Shown: positions 3,308 to 33,919, counted from the stretch's first letter. The stretch is 64,000 nt of DNA from a virus (IMGVR_UViG_643692013_000008:1-64000); one strand, 5' to 3'. Numbers and translations are program-made. The notes: a model not told the origin generated them from the sequence alone.

Positions 3308-4111
3308 TCACGGCATCGCCGCGAGGCTCCTGCTGGTTTCCCTGTACCCGTCGTCGAAGAGCCGCTGCCGGACGGCGGGCGCCATATCTCGGTCGAACGA
3401 GCTCGCGTAGCCGGTCGGCACGCTGACGATCATCGCCCCGCTCTGCTCGTCCGCCGCCATCCTGGCCGCCTCGTTGGACGCCAGCATGAGGTCGATCACC
3501 CGCGACGCGATCGTGCGCAGCCCGTAACGGCCTGGCGCGAGCGGGGCGTCATCGGACCTCAGGAACACGCCCAGACGCGGCACCTCATCCACGGTCAGAT
3601 CGCTCACGGGGATGTTGTCGGCCGTGCCGCCGTCGACGAGCAGCGCGCCAGCGGCGGCCACGGGCGGAAAGACGAACGGAATCGACGCGCTCGCCCGGGC
3701 CGCGAGCGCGATCGGCACTGCCGGCGTCGTGGCGCGCGACAGCTGGAATTCGCGCTCCGTCAGAAGATCGGCCGCAACGATCTTCAATCCGACGTCGATC
3801 TGGTCGAACGTCCGCCCTCCCGTCTGCTGCATGAGGAACGCCAGCATCTCGTCGCCGCTGCAGAGCGCGTTGACCCGGATTACAGACCAGGCCGAGAACC
3901 GCATCATCGGTGACCAGTCGACCGACATGCAGAGTGTGTGCATGTCGGCCAGCGACATGCCGCTGGCGTAGAGCGCAGCGACGATCGAGCCGCCCGACGT
4001 GCCGGCGAGCTCGACGACCTCATACCCGGCATCGGCAACCGCCTGCAGCGCACCGAGGTGCGCCGACAGGCGGAAGCCCGAGCCGCTCAAGGCAACTCGG
4101 ATCTGCTTCAT
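3308..4111 (-). CDS. Patatin-like phospholipase
   Basis: SGSGFR oxyanion loop, GTSGG (GxSxG) nucleophile, ASASIP and DGG motifs; ATGA-coupled to the upstream lipoprotein. Confidence 0.92.
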   Translation of the reverse strand: MKQIRVALSGSGFRLSAHLGALQAVADAGYEVVELAGTSGGSIVAALYASGMSLADMHTLCMSVDWSPMMRFSAWSVIRVNALCSGDEMLAFLMQQTGGRTFDQIDVGLKIVAADLLTEREFQLSRATTPAVPIALAARASASIPFVFPPVAAAGALLVDGGTADNIPVSDLTVDEVPRLGVFLRSDDAPLAPGRYGLRTIASRVIDLMLASNEAARMAADEQSGAMIVSVPTGYASSFDRDMAPAVRQRLFDDGYRETSRSLAAMP

Positions 4112-4587
4112 TGCGCGGCCGCCGAGCTAGCCGGCACTGCTTCGCTGGCCGACGCGGGGGGCGCCGTAGCGGCCGCAGTCGTCGCCGACGCCTGGCCGTA
4201 GACCGACAGGGCCTGCGTAACCGACAGTTGCAGCACCCCGAGTGCCGCGATCGCGATCGGCTTCTGGTTGTCCGGGATCAGCTTCGACGCGAGCACGGCC
4301 GTCTCGATCGCCGGGATGCCGGTGCCGATCAGGGCCTGGGCGGAGGTCACCGTAATCGACGTTGCGGCCGTGCAGAACAGCCCGTTCGCGGCCGCCGCGG
4401 CCGAGACGGCCGGGTCGATCGCGGCCACTGCCACGAGCGTCGGCTGCACCACCGTGCAGCCGTTCTTCACAGCGGTCTGGAGCGTCGCCAGCGCGCCGGC
4501 AACGGATTGCTGGGAGGCGGTCGAGCAACCGGCCAGGGATGCGACGGCCAGCACTGCGCCTGCCGCGAGCAGCATGAGCTTCTTCAT
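4108..4587 (-). CDS. Lipoprotein, possible unimolecular spanin
   Basis: MKK + hydrophobic core + LAGC lipobox, Ser at +2; hydrophobic segment near the C-terminus; 159 aa. Confidence 0.75.
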   Translation of the reverse strand: MKKLMLLAAGAVLAVASLAGCSTASQQSVAGALATLQTAVKNGCTVVQPTLVAVAAIDPAVSAAAAANGLFCTAATSITVTSAQALIGTGIPAIETAVLASKLIPDNQKPIAIAALGVLQLSVTQALSVYGQASATTAAATAPPASASEAVPASSAAAQ

Positions 4588-4660
4588 GGTTAGTACCTTC
4601 GGGAATGCCGCGAGCGCGGCGGGTGGGAAAAGCGTGGGTGCGTGGACGTCAGATGAGGCG

Positions 4661-4984
4661 TTACTGCAGGGTGGGCACCGGCGGCCGGCCAGTGGGCGCC
4701 GACGCCGAGGCCTGATCCGATGCGCCGCTCTGCGGTACCGCGACAGCGACCGATATCCCGGGCGAGGGCTTGATATCGACGGCGTCCGAAGTCGGGGGCG
4801 CCCCGGGCGAGGATGCGCCGCTGTCGCCTGCCCCCCGTCCCTGGGAAACGTGCTTACCCAGGAAGGTGAGGCCCGCGGCCAAGGCCGCGACGTAGCCTGG
4901 CGCATCCGCCTTACCCATCAGGACGAGCGCGCCCCACGCCCCATACAGCAGCACTGCACCAACAAAAACCAGCAGCATGTACAT
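4661..4984 (-). CDS. Small two-TM membrane protein (holin/antiholin-like)
   Basis: GGAGG RBS; two hydrophobic segments, then a Pro/Ser/Ala-rich tail. Confidence 0.65.
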   Translation of the reverse strand: MYMLLVFVGAVLLYGAWGALVLMGKADAPGYVAALAAGLTFLGKHVSQGRGAGDSGASSPGAPPTSDAVDIKPSPGISVAVAVPQSGASDQASASAPTGRPPVPTLQ

Positions 4985-4998
4985 CCGAACCTCCGGCA

Positions 4999-5024
4999 TA
5001 AAAAAAGGCCGCTCGCGGCGGCCG
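4999..5024 (-). terminator. Intrinsic terminator after endolysin
   Basis: GGCCGC-stem hairpin followed by T7 on the minus strand. Confidence 0.7.
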
Positions 5025-5045
5025 GGTGGTGAATTACACGCGACG

Positions 5046-5501
5046 TTAGCCGTCGAGCGCGCTCAGGTTGTGCGACTTGATGATGGCGATGATCTTCGCC
5101 GCATAGTTCGGGTCGGTGGCGTAGCCAGCCGCCGCGACTGCGGTCGCGAACGTCGTGCCGCTGGTGTACGCGAATGCGGCGGCGTAGCGGGGATTGACGA
5201 TCAGGAACTGTGCGTGATCGTTGAGGCTCGCGAGCCAGTCGGAATAGACGCGCCACCTGGCTGTCACGGTGGTCGGCTTCCCCGCCACGTACTCGGTCGT
5301 GGGCAGCATGACCGTCGGCCCCTTCCACGAGCCGTCTGCCTTCACCCCAAACAGGTTGAAGTAGCGCTGGGCGAGCTGCGAGGAAGCCCACCCGGACTCG
5401 AGCGCGGCCTGCGCAACAACGAAGCTCGCCGGGATCTTGGTGGACGTCGCCAGTTGGCACGCCGCCGGCGAGATCGCGTTGATGAAGTCATTCGGTGTCA
5501 T
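5046..5501 (-). CDS. Endolysin, GH73 (FlgJ-like glucosaminidase/muramidase)
   Basis: AQAALESGW, NLFGVKA and GYATDPNY motifs. Confidence 0.92.
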   Translation of the reverse strand: MTPNDFINAISPAACQLATSTKIPASFVVAQAALESGWASSQLAQRYFNLFGVKADGSWKGPTVMLPTTEYVAGKPTTVTARWRVYSDWLASLNDHAQFLIVNPRYAAAFAYTSGTTFATAVAAAGYATDPNYAAKIIAIIKSHNLSALDG

Positions 5502-5503
5502 GG

Positions 5504-5911
5504 TCACCCCAAGAGGAACGTGAAGGCCGCATGCGCCCAGTCGGGCACCGGCTCGTGATGCAGGTAGCGATAAATGACGATGGCGACCAGCGTGAACGCG
5601 GCCAGTTGCCCGACCACGTTGCGCATCAGAAATCGCCATGCATCGGCAATCCGGCAGAGCGCACGCATCACCTTCTGACCGCCCTGCCACGTCTCGACCA
5701 TGGACTGCGTATTGGCCACGACGGTGTCGAGCTTTCCGTCTTGTATCCGGAGGTGTTCGTCCTGCTGCCGAAGGTGTGCGTCCTGGCGCTCGAGGTGACT
5801 CCTGACCTGCGCCTCCATCTGGTTCATTCGTGCTTCCAACTTCGAGAAGCGGCGGTCTCCGCTGCGCAGTCGCTCCTCGACGCCAGCGTTGGTCGATCTT
5901 TGTTCAGGCAT
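5504..5911 (-). CDS. Putative holin (coiled coil + C-terminal TM)
   Basis: Directly upstream of endolysin; hydrophobic VVGQLAAFTLVAIVIY segment. Confidence 0.6.
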   Translation of the reverse strand: MPEQRSTNAGVEERLRSGDRRFSKLEARMNQMEAQVRSHLERQDAHLRQQDEHLRIQDGKLDTVVANTQSMVETWQGGQKVMRALCRIADAWRFLMRNVVGQLAAFTLVAIVIYRYLHHEPVPDWAHAAFTFLLG

Positions 5912-5941: not shown

Positions 5942-7912
5942 TCAGGTTCCAGTGCAAACGAACTGCACGACGTCGGTTCCGGTGCCGCTCAAAGCGAACG
6001 AGGTGCCGGAGGTTTGTGAGATGCGCACCGCGTTGGTAGCGGTCGTGTCGGTGGCCGTGCATGCATAGCTGGTCGACGAGGTATAGGCAGCTGCGCCCGA
6101 GAGCGTGACCGTGGCCGCGCCCGAGGCGAGTGTCGCCGTCCCCTTCACCATGTGCGGCGCGTTGGCGGCCGCGCCGGAGGTCGAATACAACGGCATCGCG
6201 CCGGTGCCGGTCGCGGCCAGGTTCCCGTAGACGGCGGCCGAGCCTCCAACCTGCAGCTTGTTAGTGCCGTCGTCCGTGCCGCCGACGAGCAGGCGGCCGC
6301 CGTATTTGGTGAGATTGATGTTGAACTTCGTCCCGGCTGACGCCGTGTTGTATGCCTCGACCGCGAGCTCGGATGCGGTGTCGGAATAGAAGCTCGCCGT
6401 GGCCGAGTTGCTCAGCTTCATCTGCACCGCGCCGCCGCCCTTGGGACTGAGCGTCACGGGAATCGTGGCGTCCGAGCCGATGGCGGCCAGCGCTGGCGAC
6501 GAGCCGGCCGCAGCACTCATCGAGCTCAACGAGTTGCCGCTGTTCACGGACTGGTAGAAGCTTCCCGATCCGGTGAGATTGAACGGCGCGGAGTAGTTCG
6601 ATGCGCTGTCGAGCTGCGCGCCGAAGATCTGGTTTCCGGCAGCGCCGTTGATCTCGGCGACGCACGATGTTGCGTTCGTCACCCCGTATGTCTGGCAGCC
6701 GAGCCCCATGGCGGTATTGTTCGACGAGCCATCCAGCACGAGGCCGCGCTGAAGGCTGTTGATCGACTCGATCCACGTCGATGCGATACGCGTGTATGCG
6801 GAGTTCTTGATGTACAAGACGTCGCCGAGCGCGTTGTCGATCGTGTTGCCAAAGAACCCGAAGTCGTTGTTGTTCCCTGCCAGGCGCACGACGTTGATCG
6901 ACGCGTTGTAGGGATGCGAGTTCTGGATCATCGTGGTCTGCGCGCCGGGGTTGGCGTAGATGCAGTAGTTCACGACGAACCCGCCGTTCATGATGAAGCC
7001 GTCGATCGTCGAGTCGGATGCGAACGCCCCCAACTCGATCCCGGCCTTGCCGGCAGTCGTCGAGTAGATGCGGATGTTCTTCAGCCGCACGTCGTGCATG
7101 TAGACCGACGTCGTCGGGTTGCCGTCGATCTTGATCGACGAATAGCCGGCCGGGACATTGTTGAAGGCCAGGTTCAGCAGGTCGAGCGTCTGCGCGAACG
7201 TGGTGTCGAGCGTGTTCGCGGTGCCGGCGGTGCCGTCGAACTTCAGATCACGGATCGTCGAGTGCGAGTCGAACGTGAAGGCGCCCGCGATCGCCGGATA
7301 GCTGATCGAGCCGCCCGTCTGGATCAGGACACTGTTCGGGCCGTCTCCGTAGAGCGTGAATCCGACGGTCTGCGGCAAGACCAGGCCGCTCTCGCGATAC
7401 TGGCCCGCCGGGATATAGACGGTCTTCGCTCCCGAGTTCAGCGCGGCCTGGATGCAGGCCGTGCTATCGGCTACACCGGTTTTGTCGCAGCCCGGGAAGT
7501 CGAGGATGCTCACCACGTCGCTCAGCTTGCTTGCGACCGAGCGGCCGCCGGCGCCGGACAGCGATGCCTGGAACTGCAGATTGCCGGTCGCGCCCAGCGC
7601 CGTGGTCGCGCCGGTGCCGCCCGAGGCAAACGAAAGAGGCGTCGAGAACGAAACGCTCCCCGTACTGGTCAACGTCGCGAAATTGCCGGTCGAGAAGTTG
7701 CCCGTCGCAAACGACGCCGTGGTGCCGTTGAGCGGCCCCGTGAGGGTTCCACCCGCCACCGGCAATGCGTTTGCGGCAACGCGGCTGAATGCCGTGTTCA
7801 ACTGCTCCGCGGTCAGCACCTGGCCAGGAACAAACTGCCCCATCGCGAGATGGGGCGCACAGACGGCTACCAGCGAGACCGCGAGCAGCAGCGTTTTGAA
7901 AATGCGATTCAT
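5942..7912 (-). CDS. Tailspike-like right-handed beta-helix glycanase with N-terminal signal peptide
   Basis: VSILDF..D.TG..DST..IQAA pectate-lyase-3-type cap, N/G/I-rich rungs, fibre motifs GGTLTGPL and GGTGATT; GAGGA RBS. Confidence 0.85.
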   Translation of the reverse strand: MNRIFKTLLLAVSLVAVCAPHLAMGQFVPGQVLTAEQLNTAFSRVAANALPVAGGTLTGPLNGTTASFATGNFSTGNFATLTSTGSVSFSTPLSFASGGTGATTALGATGNLQFQASLSGAGGRSVASKLSDVVSILDFPGCDKTGVADSTACIQAALNSGAKTVYIPAGQYRESGLVLPQTVGFTLYGDGPNSVLIQTGGSISYPAIAGAFTFDSHSTIRDLKFDGTAGTANTLDTTFAQTLDLLNLAFNNVPAGYSSIKIDGNPTTSVYMHDVRLKNIRIYSTTAGKAGIELGAFASDSTIDGFIMNGGFVVNYCIYANPGAQTTMIQNSHPYNASINVVRLAGNNNDFGFFGNTIDNALGDVLYIKNSAYTRIASTWIESINSLQRGLVLDGSSNNTAMGLGCQTYGVTNATSCVAEINGAAGNQIFGAQLDSASNYSAPFNLTGSGSFYQSVNSGNSLSSMSAAAGSSPALAAIGSDATIPVTLSPKGGGAVQMKLSNSATASFYSDTASELAVEAYNTASAGTKFNINLTKYGGRLLVGGTDDGTNKLQVGGSAAVYGNLAATGTGAMPLYSTSGAAANAPHMVKGTATLASGAATVTLSGAAAYTSSTSYACTATDTTATNAVRISQTSGTSFALSGTGTDVVQFVCTGT

Positions 7913-30783: not shown

Positions 30784-30898
30784 CTCTTACTCCCTGACTT
30801 CCAAGGGTTTACCCATTATTGATTCGATGAGCGGAGCCGCTATCTTCGTAGTCGGCATTCGACAGGATGCCGCCCTTAACCACACTGAGAGACCAGCC

Positions 30899-31192
30899 AT
30901 GCCGTATTTCACAGTCCGAGTCGTTTTGCACGACATCCCGAACAAGCATCACGCGACGTACGTCACACTCCATGAAGAGATGGAGAAAGGCGGATTCGAA
31001 CGCGAGATCGTCGGCAAGAACGGCACCTATCAATTGCCCCCAGCGGAATACCTCTTCAATGGCACCTTGACCGCCGTCCAGGTCCAAGAAAAAGCCACCG
31101 CTATCGCAAACAAGGTACACGCCAAGAACGGGGTCCTCGTCACTCAGGCCGCTCCCAACGGCCATGCCTGGTGCGGGCTAGACACCGTCTAA
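30899..31192 (+). CDS. GhoS/DUF2622-like (Cas2-fold) protein, antisense moron
   Basis: FTVRVVLH...Y..LHEEM...GF.R.I....G.YQLP.AEY pattern; 97 aa. Confidence 0.75.
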   Translation: MPYFTVRVVLHDIPNKHHATYVTLHEEMEKGGFEREIVGKNGTYQLPPAEYLFNGTLTAVQVQEKATAIANKVHAKNGVLVTQAAPNGHAWCGLDTV

Positions 31193-31226
31193 CCACCACG
31201 CCTCGCATATACCGTTCAAGCACGCG

Positions 31227-31263
31227 AAAAGAAAAAGCCCGCAACCGGTTTCCCGGTGCGGGC
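31227..31263 (-). terminator. Intrinsic terminator
   Basis: GCCCGCA...TGCGGGC stem plus long U-tract on the minus strand. Confidence 0.72.
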
Positions 31264-31305
31264 GAATCGTCGAGCGCGGGCCCGGCGAGAGGAGACCCGG
31301 TTCGA

Positions 31306-31578
31306 TTAGTCCGGCGCTTCGGTGAAGGTGACGTAGTACTTCTTGCCGGGAACGAGCGCGTCAACCACGACGCCGTTCTGAATCGTCGCCTTGAACTCGG
31401 CCATCGGCGTCGCTTCGCCGAAGATCGCGTTTTCGCTCGCTGCCTGCTTCTCGGTCGATCCTTCCCAAACCGCGCCGAATCGGACGGTCGCACCTGCTCG
31501 CTTCGAGGTGTCCTGACCGGCATAGCGCACCGTGGTGATGTCGTGAAGTTGCAGCTTGCATCGCATTACAGTGGACAT
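31306..31578 (-). CDS. Conserved phage hypothetical protein
   Basis: 90 aa, AGGAG RBS; EN..F..ATP...PGKKYYV.F pattern. Confidence 0.75.
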   Translation of the reverse strand: MSTVMRCKLQLHDITTVRYAGQDTSKRAGATVRFGAVWEGSTEKQAASENAIFGEATPMAEFKATIQNGVVVDALVPGKKYYVTFTEAPD

Positions 31579-31906
31579 GGTGATACTCCTGAAAATCGCC
31601 GTACGGCGTTGACAGGCATTGGCGTTGCAGTCTTACAGCCTGAGATGAACGAGTCGAGGGAATCCGCAAACAGCACTGACGTTATTTCGCGTCCTAGCCT
31701 AAGAAGCGGCGGCACAACCTTTCGGCCGACTTGCAGTGCGGCGCACCCGTTGTCACCCTCCGCGGGCCGGGCGAAATGCGATGGTCGGTTGTGGCTATCA
31801 CCCTCATGTGTGGCCCCGCCGCGATCCACGCATCCAGGCAGCGCCTGGAAACTCCCGCCGAAGGGTCACACATGAGGGGGCCCGTATCGCAGGGCCAGTG
31901 TCCGAG

Positions 31907-32041
31907 CTATGGGTGTCTTGCGAGAAAGCTGACAAATCCCCATACCAGCCCGCAGACGAAGATCACCGCGCCAGTTGAGGCGAGCAAGCAGGGCAATCGC
32001 TTGGCCAGCGCCCTTTTCAGGGAAAGCGCTCGTGTGTGCAT
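31907..32041 (-). CDS. 44-aa single-TM peptide (below ORF-track cutoff)
   Basis: GAGGTG RBS; MHTRALSLKRALAKRLPCLLASTGAVIFVCGLVWGFVSFLARHP. Confidence 0.55.
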   Translation of the reverse strand: MHTRALSLKRALAKRLPCLLASTGAVIFVCGLVWGFVSFLARHP

Positions 32042-32050
32042 CGATTCACC

Positions 32051-32350
32051 TCAATCTTGGCTTCGCTCCTCCTCGAGCTTGGCCTGCGTCATGCCGGTGA
32101 TGGAGACGATACGGCCGCCGGGCACGGCGCGATTCGCGGCCACGTCGGCCGCCAGGACGTCGCGAGCCCACGCCAGCGCCTTGCAGGCGTGCTGCCGGCA
32201 GCTGGACGCGTTCTTGAACTCGAAGCCGTCGACCGTGATCTCGACGCCGTCCTTCCCCATCTCGATCGTCACCCGGCCGACCGCAGTCAGGTCCGAGTAG
32301 TCGAGATCCCGGCCTTGTAGGGCGAAGCCGTGCGGCACGGGATCAGCCAC
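32051..32350 (-). CDS. Hypothetical protein
   Basis: 99 aa, GTG overlaps the upstream stop. Confidence 0.6.
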   Translation of the reverse strand: MADPVPHGFALQGRDLDYSDLTAVGRVTIEMGKDGVEITVDGFEFKNASSCRQHACKALAWARDVLAADVAANRAVPGGRIVSITGMTQAKLEEERSQD

Positions 32351-32612
32351 GGCGGCGACGGCGGCCGGTGGCCACCAGCAGGCTGACGATCGACAGCGCG
32401 GCCAGGCCACCGGCGACGAACTTCATCACCTTCAGCTCGGCGGCCTGGTCGTCCAGACGCTGGGCGGCGTCGCCGAAGTTCTGGTTCAGTTGCTGGGCGG
32501 TCAGCACCTGGCCGCTCTTGAACTGGACCATTTCGGCGCGAGCGGCGCCGGCGCCGAGCGACGCGGCGGCCACCACGACGGCGGCCGCGATCATGCGGTA
32601 GCGAGCATTCAT
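32343..32612 (-). CDS. Exported, C-terminally membrane-anchored mini-protein with tail-fibre-type GQVLTAxQLN motif
   Basis: AAGGA RBS; signal peptide ending ARA; QFKSGQVLTAQQLNQNF; short coiled coil; TM + RRRRR. Confidence 0.75.
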   Translation of the reverse strand: MNARYRMIAAAVVVAAASLGAGAARAEMVQFKSGQVLTAQQLNQNFGDAAQRLDDQAAELKVMKFVAGGLAALSIVSLLVATGRRRRRG

Positions 32613-32664
32613 CAGACGTTCCTTGGGACGGTTCGGAGGGTTCGGCCCGCGCCGTCCCGGAAAC

Positions 32665-32700
32665 GAAAAAGCCCCGCTCGACATAGTCGGCGGGGCTTTG
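32665..32700 (-). terminator. tR'-like terminator after the late promoter
   Basis: AAAGCCCCGC...GCGGGGCTTTTT hairpin. Confidence 0.78.
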
Positions 32701-32726
32701 GACACAACGCGTGCAGAATGACAACA

Positions 32727-32755
32727 AGTATACGTCTCTGTAACAGCGCGGTCAA
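32727..32755 (-). promoter_or_regulatory. Late promoter (pR'-like)
   Basis: TTGACC-17 bp-TATACT, downstream of the Q-like gene and just ahead of a terminator. Confidence 0.78.
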
Positions 32756-32759
32756 ACCA

Positions 32760-33224
32760 TTACAGCGTGACGGTGAATTCGTCTGCTTTCCTGCGGCGCC
32801 ATTGGTCGGCAGAGCTTTTCAGTTCGTCAATCACTGCTTGAACAGTCGCATGGTCGCCAGGGGTGGTTTTGCCATCCCAAAACCTATTCAGGCCGAGCGA
32901 GAGGAAAAGCCCGCTACCCGTTGCTCTTGCGTGAATCGGAATATCCACTCGCACCTTGCCCAAAACAATTTGAACATTGCATTTGATAGAGGGACCCTCC
33001 CTAACCGGCATGCTCGAAGCTTCGGAATCAGATGCGTTCCCGTAAACTGCGAGATCATCCTCTCCCCACAAAATGACCATTCCGCCGGCGTTAAGCTTAA
33101 GCTCAATTCCAGCTTTTAGTTGGTCAATAATCTTGCGAAGCTCTTCGACCTCAATATCGTATCTACCCTGCGCCACATCGAATTTGTGGAGCAGCTCTGC
33201 ATGGGAAACTTGCTCTTGGGCCAT
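32760..33224 (-). CDS. AT-rich moron, hypothetical protein
   Basis: GAGGAG RBS; low GC; between the Q-like gene and pR'. Confidence 0.65.
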   Translation of the reverse strand: MAQEQVSHAELLHKFDVAQGRYDIEVEELRKIIDQLKAGIELKLNAGGMVILWGEDDLAVYGNASDSEASSMPVREGPSIKCNVQIVLGKVRVDIPIHARATGSGLFLSLGLNRFWDGKTTPGDHATVQAVIDELKSSADQWRRRKADEFTVTL

Positions 33225-33265
33225 CTGCGCGATTCTCCTCAAAAAAATAATCCGCCGCAGCAGGA

Positions 33266-33919
33266 TTATGCATGAGACTGTTGCTGCCCGATAAGCCCCG
33301 TAGCTTCGAAATATGGTGTGAGAATACCAGCGGCCCGATTCTCCACTTCTCGAATTCGAGCTTCAATCTTGTCGAACGCTCGCTTGTAAGTCATGTGGTT
33401 CGCACCGAATGACTTCGCGAGATCACGAAAACTGATTTCAACTCGCGCGTGGTTGGCATACCGGCGCGCAAGCATGCAGTCGAGCGCGAGCGTCGAAATC
33501 CCATCGAACGACGGCGCCAGCCATCCAGACAAACTCCGGATCGCCTCCGCCCGCTCCCGCAGGAAGAAGAACCTCTTCGTGCCCTCAGGCGTACGCTCGT
33601 CGCCCAGTTGCCCATAGCGTGCCAGCACGGCCCAGCGCTCGATGTCCGGCAGCTTCGTGCGCACTGCGCTTACGACAACTGCGCACTGCGCGCGGACGTC
33701 GTCCATCCCAAGGCCGGCGAAGTTCACTGTCGATTCGACGACATCGCCGATGAGTTGGTTGAGCCAGATGCGCTGGCGCGCGGTAAGTGTCGGCTGCATC
33801 TCCATGATCTGGATCAGGGCCAGGCGGAAGGTGTTCTTCTCCCGGACCGGCTGCGCCATCACGAGGAAGGAGACGTGCAGTGCTTGCGAGGTCGATTGGA
33901 AGACGGCGTCCATGGTCAT
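33266..33919 (-). CDS. Late antiterminator Q-like protein
   Basis: Last early gene before pR'; C-terminal HTH (SFRDLAKSFG). Confidence 0.65.
   Translation of the reverse strand: MTMDAVFQSTSQALHVSFLVMAQPVREKNTFRLALIQIMEMQPTLTARQRIWLNQLIGDVVESTVNFAGLGMDDVRAQCAVVVSAVRTKLPDIERWAVLARYGQLGDERTPEGTKRFFFLRERAEAIRSLSGWLAPSFDGISTLALDCMLARRYANHARVEISFRDLAKSFGANHMTYKRAFDKIEARIREVENRAAGILTPYFEATGLIGQQQSHA

What the first reader, a model, noticed from the sequence alone, without database searches (positions are those of the whole stretch)
32343..32612. First late gene is a membrane-tethered copy of the spike's N-terminal motif (two-part export/tether system)
Seen: 25 kb from the spike, the first gene after pR'/tR' encodes signal peptide (..AARA) + EMVQFKSGQVLTAQQLNQNF + short coiled coil + TM + RRRRR. 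The spike reads signal + MGQFVPGQVLTAEQLNTAF. Both therefore place the same QFxxGQVLTAxQLNxxF motif at their predicted mature periplasmic N-terminus. Known: similar GQVLTA..LN segments start many tail fibres, where they are thought to trimerise or attach. Inference: the mini-protein co-oligomerises with or anchors the exported spike at the inner membrane until lysis, or acts as a decoy that binds the matching baseplate/fibre site. I know of no description of such a pair.
Basis: partly seen in the sequence, partly recalled or inferred. Interest (0 to 1): 0.8.

Follow-up and report, generated by a model that had tools for sequence, protein, structure and literature searches.

The report
Membrane-anchored mini tail-fibre neck protein
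The first late gene of this Burkholderia prophage encodes a small, previously unnamed protein that is probably exported and anchored in the inner membrane, shows a tail-fibre "neck" motif in the periplasm, and is found only in phages whose tailspike-like protein also carries an export signal, although that spike clearly does not need it.

Summary
Window 32343-32612 (-) is a real 89-aa gene. It has a signal peptide with an invariant AxA site, then F-x-x-G-x-V-L-T-A-x-x-L-N-x-x-F, a helix that runs into a C-terminal membrane segment, and an Arg tail. The spike (5942-7912, -) has a signal peptide followed directly by the same motif.

The gene sits behind a promoter, hairpin terminator and ribosome-binding site. 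Four sequence variants, including cultured phage BgManors32, keep this layout, so "first late gene" is plausible.

The family is tiny and unannotated: seven clusters of small look-alike proteins among 1.84 billion representatives.

Every anchor whose whole phage could be read (five phage contexts) sits with a signal-peptide spike. A second architecture carries the same motif plus helix at the C-terminus of a lysis-cassette lipoprotein next to such a spike.

Against a necessary pair:
- About 25 related spikes, two of them 81-88% identical to this one, have no anchor.
- Anchor motifs resemble each other and tail-collar proteins more than their own spikes.
- Co-occurrence cannot separate the spike from the adjoining lysis genes.
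- No interaction could be tested.

Verdict: a real gene family new to annotation. I rate the tether reading at about 0.3. The scan has noted signal-peptide tailspikes on other DNA, but not this anchor.

The parts
32343..32612 (-). Small anchor gene (89 aa, P0001), stop codon included
   Evidence: Homologues 83-97% identical in B. glumae/gladioli. Distant family members P0011-P0015 and P0017. dN/dS 0.45-0.6 against close relatives.
32535..32612 (-). Signal peptide, residues 1-26 (n-region R4/R6, h-region of about 12 aa, A-R-A cleavage site)
   Evidence: A24 and A26 are invariant in alignment A2. Hydropathy peak at 5-24. Helix 3-23 in the model. Cleavage itself is inferred.
32475..32525 (-). Tail-fibre neck motif QFKSGQVLTAQQLNQNF, residues 30-46
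   Evidence: F31, G34, L37, A39, L42, N43 and F46 are invariant. The DNA pattern occurs only here and in the spike. Weak matches to the junction between the adaptor domain and the neck in solved tailspikes 8x8m, 9m4d, 7xy1 and 9m4c.
32421..32498 (-). Periplasmic helix or short coiled coil, residues 39-64
   Evidence: Continuous helix from residue 39 in the AlphaFold2 model. Hydrophobic residues L42, F46, A49, L53, L60 and M63 are spaced 3-4 apart (read from the sequence).
32364..32420 (-). C-terminal transmembrane segment, residues 65-83
   Evidence: Hydropathy peak at 62-84, present in 7 of 9 family members.
32346..32363 (-). Basic cytoplasmic tail RRRRRG
   Evidence: A basic tail is conserved across the membrane-anchored members. 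By the positive-inside rule this puts the C-terminus in the cytoplasm (inference).
32620..32624 (-). Ribosome-binding site AAGGA
   Evidence: Read from the sequence. AGGAG or GAAAGGAA sits at the same place in BgManors32 and B. gladioli prophages.
32660..32702 (-). Hairpin plus U-run terminator (tR'-like) between promoter and gene
   Evidence: Fold. Three different hairpin sequences at the same position in relatives. RNA contigs of three studies stop at 32678, 32692 and 32709 (weak hint only).
32727..32755 (-). Sigma-70-like promoter TTGACC-17-TATACT (pR'-like)
   Evidence: TTGACA-17-TAGAAT, TTGCCA-17-TATCAT and TTGCAA-17-TAAATT at the same position in relatives.
32051..32350 (-). 99-aa ORF whose GTG start overlaps the anchor's stop (GTGGCTGA); function unknown
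   Evidence: The pair is conserved in B. gladioli prophages (99-108 aa) but absent from BgManors32. No family hit.
33266..33919 (-). 217-aa protein of phrog_17923, presumed late-gene regulator
   Evidence: A homologue lies directly upstream of the anchor gene in BgManors32 and in B. gladioli prophages. The regulatory role is inferred from position only.
5942..7912 (-). Spike-like protein (656 aa, P0002): signal peptide (7838-7912), motif QFVPGQVLTAEQLNTAF (7787-7837), a middle segment with a weak pre-neck-appendage match (phrog_4775), and a fibre-type C-terminal domain
   Evidence: 90% identical protein in BgManors32. N-termini of about 25 relatives all read AxA|QF.PGQ.LTA..LN.
4108..4587 (-). 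Lysis-cassette lipoprotein (LAGC lipobox). Its homologues in B. seminalis, B. cepacia and B. cenocepacia prophages carry the motif plus helix at their C-terminus

Best explanation
**What it is.** P0001 is a late phage protein. It is exported by Sec and cut after A-R-A. A C-terminal transmembrane helix holds it in the inner membrane, with the Arg tail in the cytoplasm. About 38 residues are left in the periplasm: a short strand, then the helix-starting tail-fibre 'neck' motif, then about 25 residues of helix. In tail fibres that element begins the trimeric shaft, so the protein most likely forms a membrane-anchored trimeric stub.

**What I think it does.** It is an optional accessory of the phage's exported-spike and lysis block. 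Through the shared neck element it docks or holds the Sec-exported spike trimer at the envelope until lysis. Relatives do the same with the module hung on a lipoprotein.

**Shown.** The gene is real, the family is conserved, the motif is shared, the anchor co-occurs with a signal-peptide spike, and the promoter-terminator layout is conserved.

**Inferred.** Export, cleavage, trimerisation, late timing, and above all the contact with the spike.

**How likely.** The architecture and topology part is about 0.75. The spike-tether part is about 0.3.
For: - Architecture.
- The motif is shared with the spike far beyond chance.
- Both proteins have canonical signal peptides ending directly before the motif, so both are predicted to be periplasmic.
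- Anchor and signal-peptide spike occur together in all five phage contexts where the whole phage could be read:
  - this window and G024;
  - BgManors32;
  - the prophage carrying P0017, only 33% identical to P0001;
  - B. seminalis and G014, with the lipoprotein-fused form 3-4 kb after the spike.
- Signal-peptide spikes were found in only 13 of 95 Burkholderia genomes, so this association is unlikely if the two genes were independent.
- Two unrelated anchors (a membrane helix and a lipid) carry the same module.
- The promoter, terminator and ribosome-binding-site layout, kept in four sequence variants, points to late expression together with the spike.
- RNA contigs of lysogens from four studies cover both neighbours but not this ORF (weak).
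Against: - Near-identical spikes work without any anchor: 81% identity in the second prophage of the same record and 88% in G021. About 25 other signal-peptide spikes also lack one, and five of those genomes were re-searched with 134-150 candidates scored each.
- Anchor motifs resemble one another and tail-collar proteins more than their own spikes, and show no co-variation with the cognate spike.
- In the lipoprotein form the motif is internal, so a free N-terminus is not required.
- A mixed anchor-spike trimer would break the spike's threefold symmetry (inference).
- The association is with a whole conserved block of spike, holin-like protein, endolysin, membrane protein, lipoprotein and lipase, so another gene of that block may be the partner.
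- In the P0017 prophage and in L013 the gene looks like a self-contained unit with its own terminator, not a late-operon gene.
- No interaction, export or translation data exist.
Confidence: 0.3

Rival explanations
1. It is a lysis accessory. The protein would be an inner-membrane, coiled-coil lysis factor that works with the lysis-cassette lipoprotein or the holin-like protein, not with the spike. One form of this is a type I (N-out, C-in) counterpart of an i-spanin paired with the outer-membrane lipoprotein. Another is an RI-like periplasmic regulator of the holin.
For: - The motif-plus-helix module is fused to the lysis-cassette lipoprotein in five protein clusters. By gene-fusion (Rosetta-stone) logic this points to the lipoprotein as the partner.
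- The lysis cassette matches no holin or spanin family in the libraries searched.
- Kongari et al. 2018 (PMC6139136) state that a type I inner-membrane protein with a C-terminal transmembrane domain could act as an unrecognised i-spanin.
- The gene occupies the first late position, where lambdoid phages keep their lysis genes (the lambda comparison is from general knowledge).
- T4 RI is a precedent for a small phage lysis regulator with a cleavable signal peptide (PMC8385771, title and abstract).
Against: - The gene lies 27 kb from the lysis cassette.
- Most related cassettes have neither the anchor nor the motif-bearing lipoprotein, so outer-membrane disruption there cannot depend on it.
- The ectodomain, about 38 aa, is far shorter than an i-spanin's periplasmic domain.
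- The fused lipoprotein form has no transmembrane segment, so it cannot bridge the two membranes.
- No similarity to any holin, antiholin or spanin family.
Confidence: 0.2
2. It has an independent envelope function. The protein would be a moron-type membrane protein that acts on its own trimeric stub, for example in superinfection exclusion or another modification of the envelope. The motif would then be only a reused trimerisation element.
For: - In the P0017 prophage the gene is a stand-alone unit, divergent from hicA and followed by its own terminator. In L013 a terminator also follows it.
- It sits in the variable early/late junction among accessory genes: HicAB, an Acb2/Tad1-like gene, and other strongly transcribed small genes.
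- Small exported or membrane-anchored prophage proteins are a common form of exclusion factor (general knowledge).
Against: - In the window-type phages the gene lies behind a terminator with no room for its own promoter.
- It is not covered by lysogen RNA contigs while its neighbours are (weak).
- No match in PADLOC or NCBIfam.
- This reading does not explain why the anchor was found only in phages with a signal-peptide spike.
Confidence: 0.2
3. It is a decoy or a limiter. The stub would compete with the spike for the same binding site, or would form dead-end mixed oligomers with nascent spike chains. Either way it would tune how much free spike accumulates.
For: The two proteins share the motif, the predicted compartment and probably the late timing.
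Against: The same objections apply as for the tether. In addition, no binding site for the motif is known, and anchor motifs do not track their cognate spikes.
Confidence: 0.1
4. It is a non-functional remnant: a leftover 5' fragment of a fibre gene that happens to stay open.
For: dN/dS is only moderately below 1 (0.45-0.6) and rests on few substitutions.
Against: - The full architecture (signal peptide, AxA, motif, helix, membrane segment, basic tail) is kept at 33-48% identity in different phage backgrounds.
- Codon-position GC is coding-like and a ribosome-binding site is present.
- The C-terminal anchor does not derive from any spike.
Confidence: 0.04

Closest known systems
Hypothetical protein UEW68647.1 of Burkholderia phage BgManors32 (OK665842, 57009-57272), with hypothetical proteins of B. 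glumae and B. gladioli prophages
   Same: These are true homologues of 87-89 aa with the same architecture. They hold the same position after the phrog_17923 gene, behind a promoter and a terminator. The phage also has a spike 90% identical to this one.
   Different: None has a name or a tested function. BgManors32 lacks the overlapping 99-aa ORF.
Neck motif at the end of the T7 gp17-type N-terminal domain of podovirus tail fibres and tailspikes (for example PDB 8x8m residues 95-143; also 9m4d, 7xy1, 9m4c)
   Same: The same F-x-D/S-G-x-x-L-x-A-x-D/Q-L-N pattern, followed by a helix that begins the trimeric shaft (the T7 gp17 comparison is from memory).
   Different: In those proteins the motif follows a cytoplasmic particle-binding domain of about 100 aa. 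Here it follows a signal peptide and is followed by a membrane anchor. The matches are below significance (E 0.45-1) and Pfam PF03906 is not hit.
Prophage lipoproteins of the B. cepacia complex with a C-terminal motif plus helix (P0023-P0027, 212-227 aa)
   Same: The same motif subtype (LNRNF...RRLE.LE), also membrane-tethered and periplasmic, and also next to a signal-peptide spike.
   Different: The anchor is an N-terminal lipid on a roughly 130-aa lysis-cassette lipoprotein domain. The motif is internal. A conserved C-terminal peptide (VPAVNYP..PLAG.PL) replaces the membrane helix.
Spanins: lambda Rz (i-spanin) and T1 gp11 (u-spanin)
   Same: They are inner-membrane anchored, have a periplasmic helical or coiled-coil domain, and are late phage proteins. 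gp11 also has a C-terminal transmembrane domain (PMC6139136).
   Different: P0001 has no N-terminal transmembrane domain (unlike Rz) and no lipobox (unlike gp11). It is not adjacent to an o-spanin gene or the endolysin, and its ectodomain is several times shorter.
T4 antiholin RI
   Same: A small phage protein with a cleavable signal peptide that acts in the periplasm (PMC8385771, title and abstract).
   Different: By that abstract RI is a periplasmic protein; nothing I read gives it a membrane anchor. It has no sequence similarity to P0001. Its partner is the holin's periplasmic domain.
Signal-peptide 'tail spike/fiber' proteins of Naesvirus phages (BcepNY3 gp50, Bcep1 gp51)
   Same: They have the same N-terminus as the window's spike (signal peptide, then QFAPGQILTAAQLN) and a related C-terminal domain.
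   Different: These virulent phages have no anchor. They matter for the spike, not for the small protein.

Membership tests
Sec-exported type I (N-out, C-in) membrane protein | N-terminal signal peptide: basic n-region, h-region of about 12 aa, small residues at -3 and -1 | tested here: met
   R4 and R6, hydrophobic peak at 5-24, and A24/A26 invariant in 12 sequences. No dedicated signal-peptide predictor was available, and cleavage is untested.
Sec-exported type I (N-out, C-in) membrane protein | A single C-terminal transmembrane helix followed by a positively charged tail | tested here: met
   Hydropathy peak at 62-84 and the RRRRRG tail. Seven of nine family members have the C-terminal hydrophobic segment, followed by a basic tail. 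The model has a helix from 39 to 88.
Tail-fibre N-terminal domain (T7 gp17 type, Pfam PF03906) | A significant match to the family profile | tested here: not met
   No Pfam hit. Only the roughly 20-aa motif is shared. PDB tailspike matches have E 0.45-1, and matches to PHROG tail-fibre families have E 0.04-0.06.
Holin (class II / pinholin type) | Two retained transmembrane domains, a charged C-terminus, and a gene next to the endolysin | tested here: not met
   The charged C-terminus is present. But the first hydrophobic segment is short and ends in an invariant AxA, and the endolysin is 27 kb away. No holin family hit.
Two-component spanin (i-spanin) | An N-terminal transmembrane domain with a periplasmic coiled coil, and a gene adjacent to or overlapping an o-spanin lipoprotein gene | tested here: not met
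   The topology is reversed (C-terminal membrane segment), and the downstream overlapping ORF has no lipobox. A periplasmic helix is present.
Unimolecular spanin (T1 gp11 type) | An outer-membrane lipoprotein signal (lipobox Cys) plus a C-terminal transmembrane domain | tested here: not met
   There is no Cys in the protein, and the cleavage site is the AxA type.
Known anti-phage defence or exclusion proteins | A match to a PADLOC or NCBIfam model; expression from the prophage | tested here: not met
   No hits. Lysogen RNA contigs do not cover the ORF, but this is weak because absence of contigs proves nothing.
Lambda-type late operon start (pR' - tR' - first late gene) | A promoter closely followed by an intrinsic terminator upstream of the first late gene, with a regulator gene upstream | tested here: met
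   Promoter at 32755-32727 and hairpin at 32702-32660. The same layout with different sequences occurs in BgManors32 and two B. gladioli prophage types.
Lambda-type late operon start (pR' - tR' - first late gene) | A Q-type antiterminator | tested here: inconclusive
   The upstream 217-aa protein matches only phrog_17923 (function unknown) and nothing in Pfam or the PDB.
   Anchor with spike: five of five phage contexts. Spike with anchor: five of about 30.
   Only single-chain structure prediction is offered.

The most novel reading that the evidence does not exclude
These phages run part of their tail-appendage biology in the periplasm. The spike is Sec-exported and folds there. A dedicated membrane dock captures spike trimers through the shared neck element. 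The dock is this type I mini-protein or, in relatives, the same module hung on a lysis-cassette lipoprotein. It holds the spikes at the envelope until lysis releases them to the particles or onto the cell's polysaccharide. That would be a two-part export-and-tether system that I found described for no tailed phage.
Probability: 0.22. Interest if true: 0.85.

Novelty: new variant of a known kind. Interest (0 to 1): 0.5.

Why it matters
Tailed-phage particles are assembled in the cytoplasm. Yet this phage group, including cultured phages, puts canonical secretion signals on spike-like proteins.

The small protein shows that the same fibre 'neck' module has twice been attached to a membrane anchor in just these phages. 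That gives a concrete, testable handle on what exported spikes do. BgManors32 and its B. gladioli host carry both genes, so export, cleavage, localisation and a deletion phenotype can all be measured.

Even if the tether idea fails, the work defines a new, unannotated family of late phage membrane proteins. It also marks a candidate for the 'other topology' lysis factors that spanin surveys have said they may miss.

Tried and rejected
**Searches for a known family or relatives**
- Pfam, PHROGs, NCBIfam and PADLOC on P0001 gave no family. Only sub-threshold tail-fibre PHROG hits appeared.
- The ESM Atlas gave no usable hit.
- Pattern scans found few loci: one in viral contigs, three in genome contigs.
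- The 'longer proteins' search returned one protein, the tail-collar protein P0019. This is weak because of word crowding.
- A family-level census of 401 genomes scored only 13 candidates per genome, so it may miss anchors. Five spike-only genomes were re-searched with 134-150 candidates scored each and again showed no anchor.
- P0014 was not on record. The L052 genome is not held for whole-genome search, so I walked along the contig with two look-ups instead.
- The contigs carrying P0011, P0012 and P0015 were too short to test for a spike.

**RNA evidence**
- Lysogen RNA contigs from four studies leave 32348-32677 uncovered while both flanks are covered. Absence of contigs proves nothing, and a GC-rich run at the ORF's 3' end may break assemblies. 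I use it only as a weak hint.

**Readings considered and dropped**
- Holin, SAR or pinholin: dropped because of the short h-region and the invariant AxA.
- u-spanin: dropped because there is no lipobox.
- Recent duplication of the spike's 5' end: dropped because anchors resemble each other more than their cognate spikes, and the two signal peptides are unrelated.
- The 120-aa GTG-started version of the ORF: dropped because it would contain the terminator hairpin.

**Other**
- The regulator (33266-33919) has no PDB relative.
- The literature searches found no description of an exported tailspike with a membrane partner.

Full report
**What is there**

The minus-strand ORF 32343-32612 encodes 89 aa. 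Its GC content by codon position is 0.74/0.49/0.89, typical of genes in this 65% GC prophage. AAGGA lies 7 nt before the ATG.

The protein has five parts, in order:
- a basic, then hydrophobic N-terminus ending A-R-A;
- E-M-V-QFKSGQVLTAQQLNQNF;
- a stretch with hydrophobic residues every 3-4 positions;
- a hydrophobic segment at residues 65-83;
- the tail RRRRRG.

Hydropathy finds two hydrophobic segments, 5-24 and 62-84. AlphaFold2, run with the family alignment, gives helix 3-23, a loop at 24-38, and one uninterrupted helix from 39 to 88 that begins at 'TAQQLN'. Mean pLDDT is 68.7.

The spike-like gene at 5942-7912 (-) starts with a signal-like segment followed by QFVPGQVLTAEQLNTAF. A degenerate DNA pattern for the motif core hits the window twice, at these two genes, against 0.03 expected. 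BLASTP of the two proteins gives E = 2e-6 over the N-termini.

**A real, conserved, unnamed family**

Close homologues (83-97% identity) occur in B. glumae and B. gladioli. An exhaustive HMMER search of 1.84 billion representatives found nine hits. Seven are small proteins of 75-89 aa; six share the full plan and one (P0015) lacks the membrane segment.

In the alignment of 12 members the invariant residues, apart from the start Met, are the two Ala of the AxA site and F, G, L, A, L, N, F of the motif. The spacing between the site and the motif is fixed. I take this as strong evidence for a cleavable signal peptide, not a retained helix.

dN/dS against close relatives is 0.45-0.6, based on few substitutions.

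No Pfam, PHROG, NCBIfam, PADLOC or Atlas assignment exists.

The motif itself is the widespread fibre 'neck' element. The family profile weakly matches the end of the N-terminal adaptor domain of solved podovirus tailspikes and fibres, for example 8x8m residues 95-143, where a helix follows. The profile also finds secreted tail-collar proteins built as signal peptide + motif + PF07484 (P0018 and P0019).

**Position and expression**

Upstream of the gene lie:
- a sigma-70-like promoter, TTGACC-17-TATACT, at 32755-32727;
- a strong hairpin with a U-run at 32702-32660;
- the ribosome-binding site.

There is no room for another promoter. BgManors32 and two B. gladioli prophage types have the same order of elements, but with different promoter hexamers and three different hairpin sequences. 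In each of them the layout lies directly after the homologue of the 217-aa phrog_17923 protein. This is the lambda pR'-tR' layout, so 'first late gene' is a reasonable inference. The regulator's nature is unknown.

In lysogen RNA libraries from four studies, contigs cover the 160-aa gene upstream and stop at 32678-32709, at the hairpin. They also cover 30850-32346. None covers the small ORF. This fits a silent late gene, but it is weak evidence.

Not every context is alike. In the prophage carrying P0017 the gene is divergent from hicA and has its own terminator, and in L013 a terminator also follows it.

**The spike class**

The spike's signal peptide is not a local oddity. About 25 spike-like ORFs across Burkholderiaceae begin with a basic, hydrophobic segment ending AxA. 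QF-x-[PS]-G-Q-x-L-T-A-x-x-L-N follows immediately in most of them and within a few residues in the rest. These include the annotated tail spike gp50 of virulent phage BcepNY3.

In the window the matching cut is A-M-G|Q.

In the loci compared, these genes almost always lie directly before a conserved block: a holin-like protein, an endolysin, a membrane protein, one or two lipoproteins, and a patatin or lipase. Other agents of this scan have noted signal-peptide tailspikes in several unrelated phages. Those notes are unchecked and concern the spike, not this gene.

**The co-occurrence test**

Anchors were found with a signal-peptide spike in every case where the whole phage could be read:
- the window and its twin in G024, where the two genes lie 24.5 kb apart;
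- BgManors32, whose spike is 90% identical;
- the prophage of GCA_001755835.1, whose anchor P0017 is only 33% identical and whose spike L058:13808-15562 has AQA|QFVPGQILTAAQLN;
- B. seminalis and G014.

In the last two the module is not a small membrane protein. It is the C-terminal extension of the lysis-cassette lipoprotein, reading FRHGDVLTADDLNRNFEALNKRLEMLEG, and lies 3-4 kb after the spike. Five protein clusters have this fused form.

The converse fails. The following spikes have no anchor:
- the second prophage of the same record (81% identical spike);
- G021 (88% identical spike);
- G050, G088, G013 and G393;
- BcepNY3, and many others.

A re-search of five of these genomes with 134-150 candidates scored each confirmed it.

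So the anchor seems to need the spike block, but the spike does not need the anchor.

**What the anchor is not**

- It is not a recent copy of its own spike's 5' end. Anchors share LN-[QR]-N-F followed by R-L and a helix, and score 42-44 bits against each other across the two architectures. Against spikes they score 20-31 bits. Their signal peptides are unrelated to the spikes'.
- It is not a canonical holin, i-spanin or u-spanin (see the membership rows).

**Mechanism**

I commit to the following, at about 0.3. The protein is exported, cleaved, and held in the inner membrane as a trimeric stub. Its neck element associates with the exported spike and keeps it at the envelope until lysis.

The main rival, at about 0.2, is a lysis role with the lipoprotein or the holin-like protein. 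Two things favour it. The module is fused to that lipoprotein in relatives. And Kongari et al. remark that a type I inner-membrane protein with a C-terminal transmembrane domain could be an unrecognised i-spanin (PMC6139136). Against it, the ectodomain is short, the gene is distant from the cassette, and most related cassettes lack the module.

An independent envelope function such as exclusion (about 0.2) fits the moron-like contexts but not the restriction to spike-bearing phages. A decoy or limiter (about 0.1) and a dead remnant (about 0.04) complete the list.

**Novelty and verdict**

The gene family is new to annotation, and I found no description of an exported spike with a membrane partner. 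The parts themselves are familiar: a signal peptide, the fibre neck motif, a coiled coil and a membrane anchor. The functional pairing is unproven. I therefore file it as a new variant of a known kind (small late phage envelope proteins built from fibre modules).

Interest is 0.5. The bold two-part export-and-tether reading has a probability of about 0.22.

Noticed in passing
window 5942-7912 (-); G000:C1:103294-105270; loci L014, L015, L024-L031, L063-L079, L051: A large class of spike- or fibre-like proteins in Burkholderiaceae starts with a canonical signal peptide ending AxA. QF.PGQ.LTA..LN follows directly in most of them and within a few residues in the rest. The class includes gp50 of virulent phage BcepNY3. 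C-terminal Cys pairs are conserved between P0002 and gp50.
   Followed up: partly
window 3308-5911 (-); L009:8022-11070; L058:15623-18087; L081, L085, L087, L092, L095: A conserved block follows these spikes: a holin-like 135-aa protein (or another membrane protein), an endolysin (glucosaminidase or chitinase-like), a membrane protein, one or two lipoproteins, then a patatin-like phospholipase (Lipase_3 in one prophage). The three cassette proteins I scanned (the 135-aa, the 112-aa and the lipoprotein) match no holin or spanin family.
   Followed up: partly
window 32760-33242 (-): A 160-aa ORF with low third-position GC (0.55) is inserted between the regulator and the late promoter. It has no family hit. 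It is strongly covered by lysogen RNA contigs in four studies (depth up to 271), which end at the hairpin. It is absent from BgManors32 and the B. gladioli relatives.
   Followed up: partly
window 30850-32010: The stretch between the small terminase and the 99-aa ORF is covered at depths up to 545 in lysogen RNA contigs. It holds a plus-strand ORF (about 30899-31192) that matches YmfI-family phage protein and phrog_8894 below the curated cut-off, and a minus-strand 90-aa ORF (31306-31578) matching phrog_6978. BgManors32 has two opposite-strand genes at the same place.
   Followed up: no
window 33266-33919 (-): The 217-aa phrog_17923 protein always precedes the promoter-terminator pair. It has no Pfam or PDB relative. 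Its C-terminal part (DLAKSFGANHMTYKRAFDKIEARI) looks like a helix-turn-helix, so it could be a late activator or antiterminator of a new type.
   Followed up: partly
G000:C1:64001-107572: The virus record holds a second prophage-like region with its own Gly-rich fibre, small 75-aa protein and a spike 81% identical to this one, but no anchor gene.
   Followed up: partly
L096:4179-4523; L013:13796-14095: Acb2/Tad1-hairpin (anti-CBASS/Thoeris sponge-like) genes lie a few genes downstream of the anchor gene in two unrelated phage contexts. HicAB lies next to it in a third (L052:9328-9986).
   Followed up: no
L068, L069 (genomes of about 2 Mb); L016; P0018, P0019: Signal peptide followed by the same motif also occurs outside this phage group: in 279-288-aa proteins of small-genome Burkholderiaceae, in a 130-aa protein on a MAG contig, and in tail-collar (PF07484) proteins. 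The exported 'neck' module is therefore older and wider than these phages.
   Followed up: no
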